NCBI GenBank assembly: GCA_964400475.1
Contig: CAYNTH010000003.1
Location: 3,283-67,282, forward strand
Length of the DNA stretch: 64,000 nt
Direction of reading: 5' to 3'
DNA from: an uncultured archaeon
GTDB lineage: Archaea; Aenigmatarchaeota; Aenigmatarchaeia; CG10238-14; SCSR01
Positions 14,985 through 51,064 of this stretch are shown here, piece after piece; within the stretch, counting starts at the first letter, position 1, and every line of letters starts with the position of its first letter. The position numbers were made by a program, and so were the translations under genes. Under the pieces are notes generated by a model, which saw only the letters and a program-made list of their open reading frames with translations, ran no database searches and was not told the origin of the DNA.

Positions 14985-17303
14985 TTATTTTCCTTTAATT
15001 CCTTCCAATTTCTTTTCCGCTCTTTTTTGATATTTTTTTGCGGTTGATACAGACACGTCTAATTTGTCCGCTATTGTTTCGGGCCTCAGTCTCAATAAAC
15101 TCTTGGCAGTTGTCACTCTGCTCTTTTTCAGTATTTCGGCACCCTTTTCACCGATGCCCTTTATGTCAGTTATCTCTATTCTTTTCCTGGATTTTTTCTT
15201 CTTCTTTTTCACCTTGTCTTTGACCCAACTTTCCTTTGTCTTGCATTTATGGTTGATACACATCGTGTATGGTCGCTTGCCTTTTCTATTTACTTTTATC
15301 ATCATCATACCACATTCTTTGCAGGGTCTGTTTAATTTCGTTATATATCCATTTTGAGGCAGGGGAAATCCTGTTTTGCATTTGGGATATCCTCCACATC
15401 CTACAAAGCGCTTCTTGGTCCTCTTGGATACGATGACTTTTAATCTATTGTCGCAGTTGGGGCAGTCACCCATATCGTTTTCTTCTTTCCTAGCTTCTAT
15501 CAATCCTTTCAATAATTTTTTACCTATTTTTTTCTCCTTTTTCTTGAAGTCTTTCAGGGTGTCTGTTAATAATTCTTTGGCTTCCTGTACAATTTTCTCC
15601 CTTTTTTTCTCCCCTTTTGCCACATCTTCCATTTCTTTTTCGAATTTTTTGGTCATTTCTTCACTGAGTATCCTAGGACAGTACCCCTTTAGGACTTTGG
15701 TAACAGTCTCCCCCAGTTTAGTGACTTTGATGCTTTTTCCATTTATGTATTTTCTGTTATAGAGTGTTTGAAGTATTTCGGCTCTAGTCGCTCTTGTACC
15801 CAACCCCTTGGACTCCATCTTTTTTAGTATAGATCCCTGGCTGTATCTTCCTGGCGGGTTGGTTTCTTTCTCACCCAATCGGATTTTGCTAATTTCTAAT
15901 TCATCGTCTTTTTTCATGTCTGGGAGTTCTTGATCTTCGAATGACAAGAATTTTTTGTAGTATCTTGTCCACCCGGGTTCCAGTGTTTTCTTGCCCTTGA
16001 GTTTGAATTTGTGACCGTTAACATCCAATTCGACTGTAACGCTCTCCCGTACAGTCTTTTCGGAAAAAACCGACAGGAATCTTCTAACAATGAGGTCATA
16101 CATTTTTCTTTGTCTGTTGCTAAGCTTGGATAATTTCGGTGTTTCCGATGTTGGATATATTGCAGGGTGGGCAGGATCTTTCTTTTTACCTTCATTTGGT
16201 TCCAGTTTGGATTTTGTCAGTAGCTCTTGTGATGGACCCGAATAAGTTTTTAATTTAGACAAAGATTTTATTATTTTTTTATAATCAATACTTGGCGGGA
16301 GCTTTTGTGACGAAGATCTCGGGTATGAAACAGCACCTGCTTGGTATAAACTTTCCACTATTCTCAGTGTATATTTAGGAGAATATTTGAATTGAGAATA
16401 TGCCTCAGATTGGAGGTCGGTTGTATTGAATGGAACCGGTGGATTTTGGCTGTATTTCCTCTTTCTTATCTTTTTTACAACAGCCTTTGCCCCTTTTTTC
16501 TTACAATCCTTTTTGACATTTTTCGCATCTTTCTTGTTCCACATTCTTTTCTTTTTGTACGATGCGGTTAATTTTTTGTCATTCTTTTTTACATCTGCTT
16601 CTATCTGCCAATATGGTTTTGGCTTGAATTTTCTTATCTTGAGTTCCTTTTCAAGTAAAATATCCAGGGTCGGTCCTTGGACTCTTCCAGTAGATAGTAT
16701 CGCAAAGCCTTTATCAGCTGATTTTTTCATAGCTATTGTTAATGCTCTAGTCAGATTTATGCCCCAATAAAAATCTAGATAATGTCTGGTCAATCCAGAT
16801 TCTATTTGATTGAAATCCAGTTTTTCCATCCTATTTTCAAACGAGTCATTTAGTTCGTCTTTTGTCAGGGTTGAGAATTTCATTCGATGTGCGTTTTTCT
16901 CTCCTGACATGAAGCGTATTATGTTGTACCCTATTACGGAACCTTCTGTATCGTAATCGGTCGCTATTATAAAATTAGTTTTGGACTTGTCTTTAGATTT
17001 CTTTTCTATAACTTCTTTTATGTTCTTAAAATATTTTTTAGAGAATTCTGATCCCTTTTTCTCAAAACTAGGTATCCATTCGGTTTTGAATGTGGGATAA
17101 GTCCAACCGGAACCATCCTTTACAGTATCCAATGCGAATATATGTCCGACTGCGGGTAGGACTATGAATTCATCCCCGTCTTTCACGAATTCGTACCAAT
17201 ACGATCCACGCTTTTTCTTTTTTCTAACCTTTTTACCTGCTAGTGCTTCGGCTATCTTTGTTGAAGCGCTGGGTTTTTCTGTTATTAAAATATTTGTCTG
17301 CAT
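14985..17303 (-). CDS. topA: Type IA DNA topoisomerase with zinc ribbons and an appended C-terminal HhH module
   Basis: 772 aa. Toprim start (ILITEKPSAS), a TDYDTEGS acidic cluster, the catalytic-Tyr region (AVSYPRSSS), CPNC/CGGYPKC/CKEC zinc ribbons, then KKKKKKSRKR plus ITDIKGIGEKGAEILKK... Confidence 0.9.
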   Translation of the reverse strand: MQTNILITEKPSASTKIAEALAGKKVRKKKKRGSYWYEFVKDGDEFIVLPAVGHIFALDTVKDGSGWTYPTFKTEWIPSFEKKGSEFSKKYFKNIKEVIEKKSKDKSKTNFIIATDYDTEGSVIGYNIIRFMSGEKNAHRMKFSTLTKDELNDSFENRMEKLDFNQIESGLTRHYLDFYWGINLTRALTIAMKKSADKGFAILSTGRVQGPTLDILLEKELKIRKFKPKPYWQIEADVKKNDKKLTASYKKKRMWNKKDAKNVKKDCKKKGAKAVVKKIRKRKYSQNPPVPFNTTDLQSEAYSQFKYSPKYTLRIVESLYQAGAVSYPRSSSQKLPPSIDYKKIIKSLSKLKTYSGPSQELLTKSKLEPNEGKKKDPAHPAIYPTSETPKLSKLSNRQRKMYDLIVRRFLSVFSEKTVRESVTVELDVNGHKFKLKGKKTLEPGWTRYYKKFLSFEDQELPDMKKDDELEISKIRLGEKETNPPGRYSQGSILKKMESKGLGTRATRAEILQTLYNRKYINGKSIKVTKLGETVTKVLKGYCPRILSEEMTKKFEKEMEDVAKGEKKREKIVQEAKELLTDTLKDFKKKEKKIGKKLLKGLIEARKEENDMGDCPNCDNRLKVIVSKRTKKRFVGCGGYPKCKTGFPLPQNGYITKLNRPCKECGMMMIKVNRKGKRPYTMCINHKCKTKESWVKDKVKKKKKKSRKRIEITDIKGIGEKGAEILKKSRVTTAKSLLRLRPETIADKLDVSVSTAKKYQKRAEKKLEGIKGK
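14988..15179 (-). repeat. HhH-module repeat copy 1 (3' end of topA)
   Basis: Encodes IEITDIKGIGEKGAEILKKSRVTTAKSLLRLRPETIADKLDVSVSTAKKYQKRAEKK. By manual alignment about 85% of ~120 nt are identical to 46212..46379. Confidence 0.85.
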
Positions 17304-44031: not shown

Positions 44032-45219
44032 ATGGCAAAGAAAAAGAAATCCAAGAAAAAGAAGAAAAAAGGTCTTAAGACAAAGAAGGCTCGGATGAAA
44101 GAAGTTAAAAAATTCAAAGAGAAAGTTCTGGATAAATACGGGGAAATCGTTAAAACTATCGTAGTGATGGGTTCCGTTGCTAGGGAGGAATTCAAACCAG
44201 AAAGTGATATAGATGTTTTTGTTGTTATAGACGATACTAAAGAGAAACTATCTAAACAAAAACACGATGAGATAAACGCTACTCTGGAGAGAATGGCCAA
44301 GGATATATCGAAGTCAGGTGTTTTGTCGATACAGCCAACTTATACACTGACCGAGTTTTGGAATTATGCCAGGGTCGGACATCCGATAATATACAATTTT
44401 ATCAAGGAGGGTGTTCCGGTATACGATGTCGGATTCTTTATGCCCATTAAAAGGTTGTTGAACATGGGCAAGATACCTTCCACGCGCGAAGCCATAGAGA
44501 GCTATATGGAAGGTGCGCCAAAGAAATTGATGAGAGCGAAGACGGTGAAGTTACTGATGTTGGCAGAGGATTGTTATTATGCTATGTTGAATACTACTCA
44601 GGCAGTCCTGATGTTCATGGGAGTCGAGCCGCCAGTCCCGAGCAAGGCGCATAAAGCTGTTCAGAAATATCTGATCGAACCCAAAATACTTGATGAGAAG
44701 TACGCTGATTGGTTGAAGGATATTATCGAACTACGGAAGAAAATAGAGCACAAGGAAATAATGGATGTAGAGGGTAGTTATGTGGATGAATGGTTGGGCC
44801 GGGCCGAGAAATATGTGGAGAAAATGTTCAATCTTTTGGGGGCATTGGAATTGCGTAAAAAGGAAAAAGTGCTTCAGAGAACACACGACGTCATGTATAA
44901 GGCGGCTATAACCGCGTTGAAGAGTTTGAAGAAGGAACCTGAGAAGGAATCAGAAATTCCAATCCAGTTCAGAAAAGAATTTATAAAAACCGATCTCATA
45001 GAGGGATATTATTGGGATATATGGGAACGGATTGAAAAGATGAAGGAAACCGTCGATGAAGATAAAAAGAATATAAAGGATATACCAGAGAAAGACGTTT
45101 ATCAGATGCGTGAGTACGTAAGGAAGATGATACGTGATTTAGCCAAGGCACTTAAGAAAAATGGTATAGAAAATACTGTTGACACTTTGCCTGATAATAA
45201 AAAGAAAAAAGAAGATTAA
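44032..45219 (+). CDS. Nucleotidyltransferase (MNT-type) fused to a HEPN-like domain (Rx4H present)
   Basis: Lys-rich N-terminus, VVMGSVAREEFKPESDIDVFVVIDD, then a helical domain with ELRKKIEHKE (R-x4-H). Confidence 0.65.
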   Translation: MAKKKKSKKKKKKGLKTKKARMKEVKKFKEKVLDKYGEIVKTIVVMGSVAREEFKPESDIDVFVVIDDTKEKLSKQKHDEINATLERMAKDISKSGVLSIQPTYTLTEFWNYARVGHPIIYNFIKEGVPVYDVGFFMPIKRLLNMGKIPSTREAIESYMEGAPKKLMRAKTVKLLMLAEDCYYAMLNTTQAVLMFMGVEPPVPSKAHKAVQKYLIEPKILDEKYADWLKDIIELRKKIEHKEIMDVEGSYVDEWLGRAEKYVEKMFNLLGALELRKKEKVLQRTHDVMYKAAITALKSLKKEPEKESEIPIQFRKEFIKTDLIEGYYWDIWERIEKMKETVDEDKKNIKDIPEKDVYQMREYVRKMIRDLAKALKKNGIENTVDTLPDNKKKKED

Positions 45220-46394
45220 TCTTCTTTAGATTTGTTTTCGACTTCTTCTTCTATACCGAGTCTATCTATCATTTCTTTGTATCTGTTCCTGATGGTGACT
45301 TCTGTTACACCCACTATATCAGCGACCTCTCTTTGTGTCCTCTTCTCTCCTTCAAGAACACACGCTACATATATGGCAGCCGCTGCGACTCCTGTAGGTC
45401 CTTTACCCGAAGTTATGTCGAATTTTTTGGCCTTTTTCAAAATTTCTATTGCTTTTGCTTGGACCTTATCACTCAGCTTCAACATAGAACAGAATCTTGG
45501 AACATAATCTGCTGGATCTGCCGGCAATATTCTTATATTAAGTTCCCTTGCAACATACCGATATGTCCTCCCGATTTCCCTTTTATCAACACCGCTAGCT
45601 TTCGATATCTCTTCTAGGGTTCTCGGCGAACCGAATTCTCGACTAATCGCATATGTCAATGCAGCGACCACAGATTCTATACTCCTACCTCTGACCAATC
45701 CCTTGTTAACAGCTTGTTCGTAATATCTGGCTATCCTCTCGTGCACAGGTCTGGGTAAATTCAAAAATGAGACTATCCTCTGTAGTTCGGATAATGCAAA
45801 TGACAAATTTCTATCCTTGGATTTTATTAGTCTTTTGTGCCATTTTGTGAGTCTATAATATTGTGCCCTCTTCTTAGCAGGTACCTTGTACAATTCTCCA
45901 AGGCCTTTGCCTATTTCAGTTGTCAATCCCTTGTCATGTTTTGTAAATGTCAACGGGGCACCTCCTCTCGCACGCCTCTTCATTTGCTCACTGTCGAATG
46001 CCCTCCATTCTTGCCCAGTGTCAACTATTTCTTCTTTGATAATTGCTCCGCATTTAGCACAGTATCTCTCTGCTCTGGAAGAATCCTCTATGAATTTTGT
46101 GCCACCGCACTCTGGACAGGCACCTGACTTTGTTTTAGAAGTTTTAGCTTTTTTCATAGCTTTCTTTTTGGGTTTCTTTCCTTTTTTACTTTTTCTTTTC
46201 TTGCCTTTCAGCTTTTCCGCTCTTTTCTGATATTTTTTAGCAGTTTCAACAGAAACGTTTAATTTGTCTGCGAGTGTTTCTGGATTCAATCTCAATAAAC
46301 TCTTGACAGTGGTCACCCTGCTCTTTTTCAGAACTTTGGCACTCTTCTTCCCTATTCCCTTAACCTTTGTAACTGGTATTCTTTTCTTAGCCAT
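45216..46394 (-). CDS. tfb: Transcription factor B (TFIIB homolog) with an N-terminal HhH module and Lys-rich linker
   Basis: Zn ribbon CPECGGTKFIEDSSRAERYCAKCG, B-reader/linker and two cyclin repeats. It is preceded by MAKKRIPVTKVKGIGKKSAKVLKK... and KGKKRKSKKGKKPKKK. The track ORF extends to 46430; ATG 46394 is preferred. Confidence 0.9.
   Translation of the reverse strand: MAKKRIPVTKVKGIGKKSAKVLKKSRVTTVKSLLRLNPETLADKLNVSVETAKKYQKRAEKLKGKKRKSKKGKKPKKKAMKKAKTSKTKSGACPECGGTKFIEDSSRAERYCAKCGAIIKEEIVDTGQEWRAFDSEQMKRRARGGAPLTFTKHDKGLTTEIGKGLGELYKVPAKKRAQYYRLTKWHKRLIKSKDRNLSFALSELQRIVSFLNLPRPVHERIARYYEQAVNKGLVRGRSIESVVAALTYAISREFGSPRTLEEISKASGVDKREIGRTYRYVARELNIRILPADPADYVPRFCSMLKLSDKVQAKAIEILKKAKKFDITSGKGPTGVAAAAIYVACVLEGEKRTQREVADIVGVTEVTIRNRYKEMIDRLGIEEEVENKSKED
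46212..46379 (-). repeat. HhH-module repeat copy 2 (5' end of tfb)
   Basis: Encodes IPVTKVKGIGKKSAKVLKKSRVTTVKSLLRLNPETLADKLNVSVETAKKYQKRAEK. Closely matches 14988..15179. Confidence 0.85.
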
Positions 46395-46572
46395 GATAAT
46401 CACATTTTTTGTTACTTCAAAGTGAAACAAAATTTCAAACTTATTTAACTATATACCAAAAGCTATTTAAATGTTTCTATATTTACAAGAATTTTGCATT
46501 CTGTTTTGGGTGTTCTGGGAAAAACAAAGAAATAAAACTATCCAGTCATAATTTTATTAAAGGTGTAATTTT

Positions 46573-47559: not shown

Positions 47560-48075
47560 ATGGACTTAAAGGAAAAAAGAAAGCTGATAATGTTTTCAAC
47601 CCTGTTTGGATTGATAATTACTCTTGTATCATCATTACTCATCAATTCCTATGTTATAGGCGAATTTCCTAATATAGTGTTTGTTTCAATACCCATACTA
47701 GGTGTCAGGTATTTTGGATATCCCTTGCCCTGGTTGAAAGAAATCGTATACCCTGGATCACCGAAGAATTTTATATATGTACACCTGTTCATAGATTTCT
47801 TGTTCTGGACTGGATTCGTTGCCCTTCTTAAATTGGCAAAAATGGACTTAAGCGAGCCGAAAAAGAAGATATCGAAAAAGACAACTAGAAAGGATGCCCC
47901 TGTCACAGATATAAATGGAATCGGAAAGAAAACCGCGGAGAAATTGGCCAAAAGTAGAATCAAAACCGTTAGGGGATTATTATCACTGAATCCAGAGACA
48001 TTGGCCGAAAAAATCGACGTGAGTGTGGAAACGGCCAAGAAATACCAGAAGAGGGCCAAGAAAATATCTAAATAG
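47560..48075 (+). CDS. Membrane protein (3 TM) with a C-terminal HhH module
   Basis: Three hydrophobic helices, a Lys-rich linker (EPKKKISKKTTRK), then VTDINGIGKKTAEKLAKSRIKTVRGLLSLNPETLAEKIDVSVETAKKYQKRAKK. Confidence 0.6.
   Translation: MDLKEKRKLIMFSTLFGLIITLVSSLLINSYVIGEFPNIVFVSIPILGVRYFGYPLPWLKEIVYPGSPKNFIYVHLFIDFLFWTGFVALLKLAKMDLSEPKKKISKKTTRKDAPVTDINGIGKKTAEKLAKSRIKTVRGLLSLNPETLAEKIDVSVETAKKYQKRAKKISK
47902..48072 (+). repeat. HhH-module repeat copy 3 (more diverged)
   Basis: Protein-level homolog of the topA and tfb modules. Nucleotide similarity is lower but still visible. Confidence 0.7.
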
Positions 48076-48464: not shown

Positions 48465-48749
48465 GTGAAAATGTTGATAACCCAAAAAAAGACAAAAGGT
48501 TCAACTGAGGATACCGTATATGAATACATATGCGAAAATCCCGGACTGTGTACTTATGAGTTGGCCAAAAGGTTGAGGATGAGTGGAGGGAATTTACGCT
48601 CTGCGCTATCGCGGCTGCACAAAAAAGGGTTAGTTTCTTTTAAGTTCGATAAGAAGAACCCCAGAATTAAAAAATTGACTTATCCTGTTGAGTTTAGAGA
48701 ACTCCTTCCTGATGTAATTAAGGATTTGATTAAGAAAAAATTCGGATAG
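48465..48749 (+). CDS. Small winged-helix (MarR/ArsR-like) protein
   Basis: VYEYICENPGLCTYELAKRLRMSGGNLRSALSRLHKKGLVSF. Confidence 0.5.
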   Translation: MKMLITQKKTKGSTEDTVYEYICENPGLCTYELAKRLRMSGGNLRSALSRLHKKGLVSFKFDKKNPRIKKLTYPVEFRELLPDVIKDLIKKKFG

Positions 48750-50560: not shown

Positions 50561-50647
50561 AAAAATTTAAAAGCCTTTAAAATCATTTTTATTATCTAAA
50601 ATTAAAGTATTTAGAGCTAAAAATTATTCAAATAAAGGTCGTTGATT

Positions 50648-51064
50648 ATGGTATCTGTTAAAAAGAGGAAGATGATACTTCTTGAGAAACTCGAAATATC
50701 CAGTTTAAAGAAAATTTGTAGGATAGAGAATATATCCTCGGAAGGTACGAAGGAAGAGCTTGTGGAACGGGTTGCTAAGCATTTGTATTTGGCACCGACA
50801 AGGCTTTATGTAAAGAGGCTGGGGCTTAATGAGGAGATATCGCTTTTCAATCACGATCTAGTACCGACCCATAGGATTTTGGAAGACGATGAAAGGAAGA
50901 AGCTGTTCAAGAAATATTCCATAACTCCTAAGAACCTCCCGAGACTGAAGGTAAGGGATCCTGCTGCGATGACTATAGGTGCTAGGAGGGGGGATATAGT
51001 CGAGATAAGTCGGAAAAGTAAAACCGCGGGAGAAATCAAATATTACAGAGTCGTTGTTAGATAA
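50648..51064 (+). CDS. rpoH: RNA polymerase subunit H (Rpo5) with an N-terminal SAP/HeH-like extension
   Basis: The C-terminal ~75 aa (HDLVPTHRILEDDERKKLFKKYSITPKNLPRLKVRDPAAMTIGARRGDIVEISRKSKTAGEIKYYRVV) form the RpoH core. The N-terminal ~60 aa contain LEISSLKKICRIENISSEGTKEELVERVAKHL. Confidence 0.75.
   Translation: MVSVKKRKMILLEKLEISSLKKICRIENISSEGTKEELVERVAKHLYLAPTRLYVKRLGLNEEISLFNHDLVPTHRILEDDERKKLFKKYSITPKNLPRLKVRDPAAMTIGARRGDIVEISRKSKTAGEIKYYRVVVR

What the first reader, a model, noticed from the sequence alone, without database searches (positions are those of the whole stretch)
45216..46394. TFB with an N-terminal HhH DNA-binding appendage
Established knowledge: archaeal TFB normally starts with the Zn ribbon that contacts RNA polymerase.

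Seen in sequence: here about 95 residues precede the ribbon (CPECGG...CAKCG). They comprise an HhH module plus a KGKKRKSKKGKKPKKKAMKKAKTSKTK linker.

Inference:
- An extra sequence-independent DNA anchor on the general initiation factor could change promoter recognition or compensate for weak BRE/TATA contacts in an AT-rich genome.
- Together with the SAP-like extension on RpoH, it points to a lineage-specific remodelling of the basal transcription machinery.
Basis: partly seen in the sequence, partly recalled or inferred. Interest (0 to 1): 0.6.

Follow-up and report, generated by a model that had tools for sequence, protein, structure and literature searches.

The report
TFB with a tethered HhH domain
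In one tiny symbiotic (DPANN) archaeon, the general transcription factor TFB carries an extra small DNA-gripping domain on a lysine-rich leash, but the same domain was also pasted onto four unrelated proteins, so it is a general add-on and not a redesign of transcription.

Summary
The minus-strand ORF 45216-46394 encodes a 392-aa TFB. Residues 1-62 form an (HhH)2 domain, residues 63-92 a polybasic linker, and a canonical zinc ribbon plus two cyclin repeats follow.

The extension is translated:
- It has four paralogues in the same genome, with dN/dS of 0.08-0.15 and synonymous sites near saturation.
- Only this frame is open.
- ATG 46394 has a well-placed GTGAT Shine-Dalgarno motif.
- An independent assembly carries the identical ORF.

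The other four copies sit on topoisomerase I, ValRS, an ApgM-type mutase and a small membrane protein. In each case the module lies in a lysine-rich tail that relatives carry bare. An earlier scan note (e1-2788183) had seen three of the five copies.

Syntenic TFB orthologues in the same genus have 56-68-aa polybasic tails and no HhH. I found no other TFB-HhH fusion in 371 genomes of the phylum, in two protein-database searches or in the literature searched. A related module does end four TFE-alpha proteins from another lineage.

The most likely function is a non-specific nucleic-acid tether. This is inferred, not shown. It is a new variant of a known kind, of modest interest.

The parts
45216..46394 (-). 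Whole gene: HhH-linker-TFB fusion, 392 aa plus stop
   Evidence: ORF and translation. Pfam and NCBIfam domains. The identical ORF was called on an independent Logan contig.
46209..46394 (-). N-terminal (HhH)2-type module, aa 1-62 (GIG hairpin at aa 13-15, second hairpin NVSV at 46-49)
   Evidence: HHH_5 at aa 8-54, 23.1 bits. Five-copy alignment with 28 invariant columns. dN/dS 0.08-0.15. AF2 pLDDT 85.8 with RadA/Rad51-NTD and Pol iota thumb as top fold matches. PDB sequence hit to Pol IV 7yll, E = 4e-6.
46119..46208 (-). Polybasic linker, aa 63-92 (17 K/R, 0 D/E), predicted disordered
   Evidence: Composition. pLDDT below 50 for aa 66-89 in the full-length model. It corresponds to the bare K/R/T/S tails of orthologues.
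46155..46157 (-). Internal ATG (Met80), 13 residues before the ribbon: the position of the canonical TFB start, and a possible relic or alternative start
   Evidence: The NCBIfam TFB model begins at aa 80. Short-tailed homologues start a median of 13 aa before the ribbon. Fifteen of 31 long-tailed TFBs keep a Met at -27..-9. No SD-like motif lies upstream.
45996..46118 (-). TFB zinc ribbon (C93, C96, C112, C115), aa 93-133
   Evidence: PF08271, 54.7 bits. The four cysteines are invariant in 42 TFBs.
45219..45995 (-). B-reader/B-linker and two cyclin-fold repeats (TFB core), aa 134-392
   Evidence: PF00382, two stretches, 152 bits. 79-91% identity to Aenigmatarchaeota TFBs. High pLDDT for the cyclin repeats.
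46399..46403 (-). GTGAT Shine-Dalgarno-like motif starting 9 nt upstream of ATG 46394
   Evidence: The 16S 3' end is GGATCACCTCC. Genome-wide, 43 of 51 GTGAT upstream of long ORFs start at -8 to -10. Sequence.
46464..46471 (-). TTTAAATA, a TATA-box-like octamer about 70 nt upstream of the ATG, in the 178-bp intergenic region shared with the divergent histone gene
   Evidence: Read directly from the sequence. Its promoter function is inferred, not tested.
15015..15179 (-). Paralogous module at the C-terminus of topoisomerase I (closest copy: 76% aa, 78% nt)
   Evidence: tblastn and ORF extraction. TIGR01057 topA_arch, 703 bits. Orthologues in relatives end at the lysine tract.
47896..48060 (+). 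Paralogous module at the C-terminus of a 171-aa membrane protein (ORF 47560-48075)
   Evidence: HHH_5, 34.5 bits. 69% aa identity to the TFB copy. The G002 orthologue matches only aa 7-110.

Best explanation
The gene encodes one polypeptide. A roughly 60-residue (HhH)2 domain is joined by a roughly 30-residue disordered, lysine-rich linker to an otherwise canonical and highly conserved TFB. This TFB is the positional orthologue of the main Aenigmatarchaeota TFB.

Shown here:
- The ancestral TFB of this clade already had a variable polybasic N-terminal tail.
- In this species' lineage, one HhH module family spread within the genome into the lysine-rich tails of five proteins: TFB, topoisomerase I, ValRS, an ApgM-type mutase and a membrane protein.
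- All five copies have since been kept under purifying selection.

Inferred, not shown:
- The module plus linker acts as a sequence-independent nucleic-acid tether. The HhH hairpins and flanking lysines would contact the phosphate backbone.
- On TFB this would raise general DNA affinity, and hence residence at or search for promoters.
- The linker leaves the ribbon that docks on RNA polymerase. It is long enough to let the domain reach promoter DNA near the complex, much as the flexibly tethered alpha-CTD of bacterial RNA polymerase reaches upstream DNA.
- A shorter canonical isoform starting at Met80 may be made as well.
For: Fusion and translation:
- One open frame; the other two frames carry 8 and 7 stops.
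- GTGAT lies at -9 of ATG 46394, the genome's preferred SD position.
- Five paralogous modules show pS 0.54-0.95, pN 0.12-0.25 and dN/dS 0.08-0.15. There is no stop between the module and the ribbon, so any ribosome that translates the module makes the fusion.
- An independent Logan contig carries the identical ORF.

Fold:
- pLDDT is 85.8. RadA/Rad51 N-terminal domain and Pol iota thumb are the top fold matches.
- Sequence hits reach Pol IV, Topo V, XPF and ComEA HhH regions.
- Invariant residues include G13-I14-G15 and the basic residues K17, R26, K44, K53, K54 and R58.
- The linker is predicted disordered.

History:
- The syntenic orthologues in G001, G002 and G013 keep the order NTase-NTase-TFB-histone-aIF5A-membrane protein. 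The two same-genus orthologues (G001, G002) have 68- and 56-aa basic tails without HhH.
- Orthologues of topo I, ValRS, ApgM and the membrane protein have bare lysine tails.

Recurrence:
- G083 has 7 copies on other host proteins.
- Four TFE-alpha proteins end in the same module.
Against:
- The TFB copy alone scores below the Pfam HHH_5 cut-off (23.1 against 27).
- Two hosts, a glycolytic mutase and a membrane protein, have no obvious need for DNA binding. That weakens a promoter-specific reading and leaves room for another role of the module.
- The fusion is known from one metagenome-assembled genome only, so it could be a young and nearly neutral acquisition on TFB.
- Met80 sits exactly where canonical TFBs start, so the long form may be a minor product.
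Confidence: 0.62

Rival explanations
1. The functional TFB starts at Met80 and is canonical. The upstream HhH-coding stretch is either not joined to TFB in the cell or is a minor by-product. At most two isoforms are made and the short one does the work.
For: - The NCBIfam TFB model starts at aa 80.
- Met80 lies 13 aa before the ribbon, which is the median start of short-tailed homologues.
- Fifteen of 31 long-tailed homologues keep a Met at -27..-9. Met density there is 2.7%, against 0.9% further upstream.
Against: - The module is under strong purifying selection at the protein level (dN/dS about 0.1), so it is translated.
- No stop separates it from the ribbon.
- ATG 46394 has a well-placed SD-like motif and Met80 has none.
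- Sixteen of 31 long-tailed homologues have no internal Met in that window.
- A dual-isoform version is not excluded.
Confidence: 0.12
2. The module is mainly a protein-protein or localisation tag rather than a promoter-DNA anchor. For example, it could bring five proteins to a common site such as the nucleoid surface, the membrane protein that carries the same domain, or another partner. (HhH)2 domains can mediate dimerisation, as in XPF-ERCC1.
For: - The host set is heterogeneous: a mutase, ValRS and a membrane protein.
- One copy is membrane-anchored.
- XPF HhH regions are among the sequence hits.
- A RAD51 N-terminal lobe bound to a histone tail is among the fold hits.
Against: - The GIG hairpin and six basic residues are invariant across copies, and every copy abuts a polylysine tract. 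That is the signature of backbone binding.
- The best fold and sequence matches are DNA-contacting HhH units of polymerases, Topo V and RadA.
Confidence: 0.16
3. The TFB fusion is an effectively neutral by-product of recombination between lysine-codon tracts, that is, domain shuffling with no transcription phenotype. The sequence constraint seen reflects the module family as a whole and not a role on TFB.
For: - The fusion is a singleton among 371 genomes of the phylum and in the protein databases searched.
- Every insertion lies in a pre-existing lysine tail.
- Stretches of about 90% nucleotide identity between the TFB and topo I copies hint at exchange between copies.
Against: - The TFB copy itself shows pN 0.13-0.22 against pS 0.54-0.92 in every pairwise comparison. 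It has therefore been maintained in frame and intact over a long time.
- The TFE-alpha fusion is conserved in four diverged proteins of another lineage. That shows this module can be stably kept on an initiation factor.
Confidence: 0.1

Closest known systems
Archaeal TFB / eukaryotic TFIIB (NCBIfam PRK00423; Pfam PF08271 + PF00382)
   Same: Residues 80-392 are a full, highly conserved TFB with zinc ribbon, B-reader/linker and two cyclin repeats. They are 79-91% identical to other Aenigmatarchaeota TFBs, and the gene sits in the conserved genomic position.
   Different: It carries 92 residues before the ribbon instead of the usual 10-20: an (HhH)2 domain plus a polybasic linker. I found no other TFB with an HhH domain.
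(HhH)2 domains: RadA/Rad51 N-terminal domain, Y-family polymerase thumb (Pol iota, Dpo4-type Pol IV), Topo V repeats (Pfam HHH_5, PF14520)
   Same: The predicted fold is the same (rmsd 1.1-1.9 A over 53-58 columns). It has a GIG hairpin and basic residues, and there is direct sequence similarity to Pol IV 7yll (E = 4e-6).
   Different: The module is free-standing on a flexible basic tether and is attached to non-repair proteins. The TFB copy scores just under the Pfam cut-off. DNA binding was not tested.
C-terminal domain of the bacterial RNA polymerase alpha subunit (alpha-CTD) binding UP elements
   Same: Functional analogy only. Both are small HhH-containing domains on a flexible linker attached to the initiation machinery, able to reach DNA beside the core promoter.
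   Different: There is no homology signal; PF03118 is not among the Pfam hits of this protein. The module sits on an initiation factor and not on a polymerase subunit. No UP-like element has been identified.
Topoisomerase I with C-terminal HhH (NCBIfam PRK07220 / PRK14973 types) and engineered HhH-polymerase chimeras (from my own knowledge of Topo V HhH fusions that add processivity and salt tolerance)
   Same: An HhH unit is used as a generic, sequence-independent DNA-affinity add-on at a protein terminus. The topo I of this genome carries the closest paralogue of the TFB module.
   Different: Here the add-on sits on a transcription initiation factor. Same-genus topo I orthologues lack it, so it is not inherited from a standard topo I architecture.
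TFE-alpha with a C-terminal polybasic linker and the same HhH module (metagenome proteins P0130, P0271-P0273; undescribed as far as I could find)
   Same: The module family is the same (56-74% identical) and so is the lysine-rich tether. It is also attached to a basal initiation factor.
   Different: The factor is different (TFE-alpha), the terminus is different (C-terminal), and so is the lineage: the TFE core has no close match in this genome's order.

Membership tests
TFB/TFIIB | N-terminal zinc ribbon with four Cys (CxxC...CxxC) | tested here: met
   PF08271, 54.7 bits against a cut-off of 29, aa 92-133. C93, C96, C112 and C115 are invariant in 42 TFBs.
TFB/TFIIB | Two cyclin-fold core repeats | tested here: met
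   PF00382, two stretches, 152 bits. The AF2 helical core has pLDDT 74-93.
TFB/TFIIB | Whole-protein score above the curated family cut-off | tested here: met
   NF001658 PRK00423, 409.2 bits against a cut-off of 384, aa 80-382.
TFB/TFIIB | Orthology with the main TFB of the clade (conserved gene neighbourhood) | tested here: met
   The order NTase-NTase-TFB-histone-aIF5A-membrane protein is conserved in G001, G002 and G013. The core is 81-82% identical to same-genus TFBs.
TFB/TFIIB | Recruits RNA polymerase to TBP-DNA and supports initiation | not testable with these tools
   Needs in vitro transcription.
(HhH)2 domain (Pfam HHH_5, PF14520) | Score above the Pfam gathering cut-off | tested here: inconclusive
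   The TFB copy scores 23.1 bits against 27. The membrane-protein copy (34.5) and the ApgM copy (31.2) pass. The ValRS copy scores 22.5.
(HhH)2 domain (Pfam HHH_5, PF14520) | Two helix-hairpin-helix units with a G-hydrophobic-G first hairpin, packed as a five-helix bundle | tested here: met
   G13-I14-G15 is invariant. The AF2 model has pLDDT 85.8 with helices 16-24, 30-35, 38-45 and 49-68. Foldseek probability is 1.00 to RadA/Rad51 NTD and the Pol iota thumb.
(HhH)2 domain (Pfam HHH_5, PF14520) | Sequence-independent binding of the nucleic-acid backbone | not testable with these tools
   Needs EMSA or anisotropy with the purified module.
Bacterial RNAP alpha-CTD (PF03118) | Sequence membership of the alpha-CTD family | tested here: not met
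   PF03118 is not among the 18 Pfam families hit at E <= 0.1. The comparison is a functional analogy only.
RadA/Rad51 recombinase | N-terminal HhH domain followed by a RecA-type ATPase core | tested here: not met
   A TFB follows the domain, not an ATPase. The genome's true RadA lies elsewhere (C12) and its HhH is only 27% identical.

The most novel reading that the evidence does not exclude
A portable 'polylysine leash plus (HhH)2' cassette is spreading by recombination between lysine-codon tracts in several Aenigmatarchaeota-like lineages. It has been captured independently by two basal initiation factors: the N-terminus of TFB here, and the C-terminus of TFE-alpha elsewhere. On these factors it would work as an archaeal counterpart of the bacterial alpha-CTD. 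That means an extra, sequence-independent contact with DNA flanking the core promoter, which changes promoter affinity or selectivity in small AT-rich genomes. Initiation at Met1 or Met80 might give tethered and untethered TFB isoforms.
Probability: 0.22. Interest if true: 0.65.

Novelty: new variant of a known kind. Interest (0 to 1): 0.42.

Why it matters
TFB is normally one of the most architecturally constant proteins in archaea, and its N-terminus docks on RNA polymerase. An additional tethered DNA-binding domain at that end would be the first natural example I could find of an archaeal general initiation factor with a built-in non-specific DNA anchor.

Together with the TFE-alpha fusions and the polybasic TFB tails of the clade, it suggests that reduced DPANN genomes raise the DNA affinity of core machinery by bolting on generic modules. 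It also gives a clean natural experiment, with orthologues with and without the module, for testing how extra DNA contacts affect archaeal promoter use.

The limits are clear. It rests on one metagenome-assembled genome, there are no functional data, and the same module sits on non-transcription proteins.

Tried and rejected
- A mixed alignment of full-length TFBs and the four module fragments (A1) misplaced the fragments. I dropped it and made separate alignments, A2 (module) and A3 (TFBs).
No read-level or RNA evidence for the start codon or the junction could be obtained.
- A word-based search with aa 1-66 in the length range of TFB found only the query itself.
- phmmer of aa 1-135 against 1.84 billion representatives gave no protein combining HhH and a TFB ribbon among the best 150. 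Clustering at 50% identity can hide rare fusions; the query itself is not a representative.
- I asked whether the genome lacks TFE, which could make the TFB add-on compensatory. The result is inconclusive. TFE-like hits are below the Pfam cut-off in this genome and in most relatives alike.
- I considered an in-frame selfish DNA element of recent spread. It is unlikely, because synonymous sites between copies are near saturation. Flanking repeats were not searched.
- I considered an assembly chimera through a repeat. It is unlikely, because the copies are only 61-78% identical at DNA level and an independent assembly agrees.
- Five literature searches found no description of a TFB-HhH fusion or of polybasic TFB tails.
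Full report
**What is there**

The minus-strand ORF from ATG 46394 to the stop at 45216-45218 encodes 392 residues. Pfam finds HHH_5 at aa 8-54 (23.1 bits, cut-off 27), the TFIIB zinc ribbon at 92-133 (54.7 bits) and two TFIIB cyclin repeats (152 bits). The NCBIfam TFB model PRK00423 scores 409 bits, above its cut-off of 384, and aligns from residue 80.

Ninety-two residues precede the first ribbon cysteine. Residues 1-62 are the HhH module (19 K/R, 4 D/E).

**Organism and paralogues**

The window lies in a 649-kb, 15-contig, 88%-complete genome. Its closest TFBs are labelled Aenigmatarchaeota, a DPANN group. The genome has three TFB genes:
- this one;
- a plain copy of about 308 aa on contig 2;
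- a 542-aa copy on contig 5 with a roughly 220-aa C-terminal extension.

The gene studied here is the conserved main TFB. Its core is 79-91% identical to many Aenigmatarchaeota TFBs. It sits in a conserved neighbourhood (NTase, NTase, TFB, histone, aIF5A, membrane protein) shared with G001, G002 and G013.

**Is the extension translated?**

Several independent lines say yes.
- Only the TFB frame is open over the 92 codons. The other two frames carry 8 and 7 stops.
- The 16S rRNA 3' end is GGATCACCTCC. Genome-wide, GTGAT upstream of long ORFs starts at -8 to -10 in 43 of 51 cases. ATG 46394 has GTGAT at -9, and Met80 has nothing comparable.
- The module has four paralogues in the same genome. 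They are 64-78% identical in protein and 61-78% in DNA, with pS 0.54-0.95, pN 0.12-0.25 and dN/dS 0.08-0.15. This is the strongest line. Constraint of that kind exists only if the stretch is read as protein. No stop separates it from the ribbon, so reading it produces the fusion.
- An independent Logan assembly (a 19.9-kb contig) carries the identical 392-aa ORF with the same neighbours.

One caveat stands. Met80 lies 13 residues before the ribbon, exactly where short-tailed TFBs start. Fifteen of 31 long-tailed homologues keep a Met in that window. A second, canonical isoform cannot be excluded.

**Fold**

An AlphaFold2 model of aa 1-69, built on the five-copy alignment, has a mean pLDDT of 85.8. 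Its best PDB fold matches are RadA/Rad51 N-terminal domains and the thumb of DNA polymerase iota (probability 1.00, rmsd 1.1-1.9 A over 53-58 columns). A profile of the five copies hits the HhH regions of a Pol IV (7yll, E = 4e-6), Topo V, Pol iota, XPF, ComEA and RadA by sequence.

G13-I14-G15 and six basic residues are invariant among the copies. In the full-length model the linker (aa 66-89) has pLDDT below 50, while the ribbon and cyclin core are confidently folded. This is the picture of a flexibly tethered domain.

**Where the module came from**

The five copies are found by tblastn and ORF extraction:

| Host protein | Position of module | Identification |
|---|---|---|
| TFB | N-terminus | |
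| Topoisomerase I | C-terminus | TIGR01057, 703 bits |
| ValRS | C-terminus | NF009687, 888 bits |
| ApgM-type phosphoglycerate mutase | N-terminus | PF10143 |
| 171-aa membrane protein | C-terminus | window 47560-48075 |

Every copy abuts a lysine/arginine tract.

Relatives carry the tails without the module. The syntenic same-genus TFBs have polybasic tails of 56 and 68 aa and no HhH. Orthologues of topo I, ValRS, the mutase and the membrane protein in relatives stop at or start from bare lysine tracts.

Among the 119 closest TFB homologues, the pre-ribbon tail has a median of 16 aa. It reaches 30 aa or more in 30 of them and 88 aa at most, with 43% K+R in the long tails. None contains an HhH. 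The polybasic tail is therefore a clade feature, and the HhH was added to its far end in this lineage only.

**How unusual is the TFB fusion?**

The TFB fusion turned up nowhere else in these searches:
- The module was searched in 371 genomes of the phylum. Strong matches occur only in this genome (5) and in G083, a member of another family (7). The remaining weak matches lie mostly in ORFs of about 310-340 aa, the length of RadA, which I did not inspect one by one.
- In G083 the hosts are a nucleotidyltransferase (a homologue of window gene 44032-45219), two membrane proteins, a KaiC/RadA-like ATPase, a coiled-coil protein, topo I and a small ORF. TFB is not among them.
- A word-indexed search of 5.8 billion proteins with aa 1-66 returned only the query.
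- phmmer of aa 1-135 against 1.84 billion cluster representatives gave no HhH-plus-ribbon TFB among the best 150.

That last search did turn up a TFE-alpha with a C-terminal polybasic linker and a closely related module (P0130: PF02002 63 bits, HHH_5 32.7 bits). It is present on contigs from two samples. A follow-up search found three more diverged TFE-alpha proteins with the same tail. Their TFE core has no close counterpart in this genome's order, yet the modules are 56-74% identical to the copies here. Within each genome the copies resemble each other more than copies elsewhere. That fits spread or homogenisation within genomes.

**Interpretation**

The structural and evolutionary statements above are shown by tool results. 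The function is inferred.

An (HhH)2 unit with conserved hairpin glycines and lysines, always next to a polylysine tract, is most simply a sequence-independent nucleic-acid tether. On TFB it would add general DNA affinity. The tether leaves the ribbon, which in known initiation complexes sits on the polymerase dock (established knowledge of TFIIB/TFB structure). A 30-residue disordered linker can span roughly 100 A, so promoter-flanking DNA is within reach. The closest working analogy is the bacterial alpha-CTD, but Pfam gives no alpha-CTD signal.

That view gains some support from the SAP domain on RpoH and from the TFE fusions. It is weakened by two facts. The module sits on a mutase, an aminoacyl-tRNA synthetase and a membrane protein. 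SAP-RpoH also has a different and wider distribution (G002, G011, G037). No paper describing a TFB-HhH fusion or polybasic TFB tails was found.

**Relation to earlier scan notes**

Note e1-2788183, on this same window, had already reported the shared module on topo I, TFB and the membrane protein. I confirmed that independently. I also added the ValRS and mutase copies, the selection analysis, the start-codon evidence, the second multi-copy genome and the TFE-alpha fusions.

**Verdict**

This is a real, translated TFB variant with a tethered (HhH)2 domain. It is one instance of a promiscuous module, known so far from a single genome, and its function is untested. I class it as a new variant of a known kind, of modest interest.

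Noticed in passing
window 50642-51064 (+): RpoH is 140 aa with an N-terminal SAP domain (PF02037, 26.5 bits against a cut-off of 23.9, aa 15-48) in front of the Rpb5_C core. Full-length matches occur in G002, G011 and G037. G002 and G011 also keep a second, short RpoH. Most relatives have only the roughly 80-aa core.
   Followed up: partly
G000 contig C5:48693-50321 (+), outside the window: A third TFB paralogue of 542 aa has a normal ribbon and two cyclin repeats plus a roughly 220-aa C-terminal extension with no Pfam match. G001 has a 575-aa open frame matching it.
   Followed up: no
L073:232-1065 and L074:2288-3121 (metagenome contigs); proteins P0130, P0271, P0272, P0273: TFE-alpha proteins from another, unplaced lineage end in a polybasic linker plus the same HhH module family (56-74% identical to this genome's copies). 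The fusion is conserved in four diverged proteins.
   Followed up: partly
G083 loci L065-L071: A second genome, in the same class but another family, carries 7 copies of the module. The hosts are a nucleotidyltransferase, two membrane proteins, a KaiC/RadA-like ATPase, a coiled-coil protein, topo I and a small ORF.
   Followed up: partly
window 44032-45219 (+): The nucleotidyltransferase gene converging on TFB (a 4-nt overlap of the two 3' ends) starts with the polybasic tail MAKKKKSKKKKKKGLKTKK. A homologous protein in G083 carries the HhH module on that tail.
   Followed up: no
window 46209-46394 versus 15015-15179: The TFB and topo I module copies reach 90% DNA identity in two 30-nt stretches, against 57% at the 5' end of the module. 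This may be a trace of gene conversion between copies about 31 kb apart.
   Followed up: no
whole genome G000: Twelve of 891 ORFs of 100 aa or more contain a 20-residue window with at least 13 K/R, mostly at protein termini. Polybasic tails are a recurrent feature of this proteome.
   Followed up: no
window 48498-48734 (+) and G000 C6:42312-42479: No TFE-alpha reaches the Pfam cut-off in this genome. The best hits are 20.9 bits in a 103-aa winged-helix ORF next to the membrane-HhH gene, and 18.3 bits in a 309-aa ORF. Relatives show equally weak hits, so TFE is probably just divergent in this clade.
   Followed up: partly
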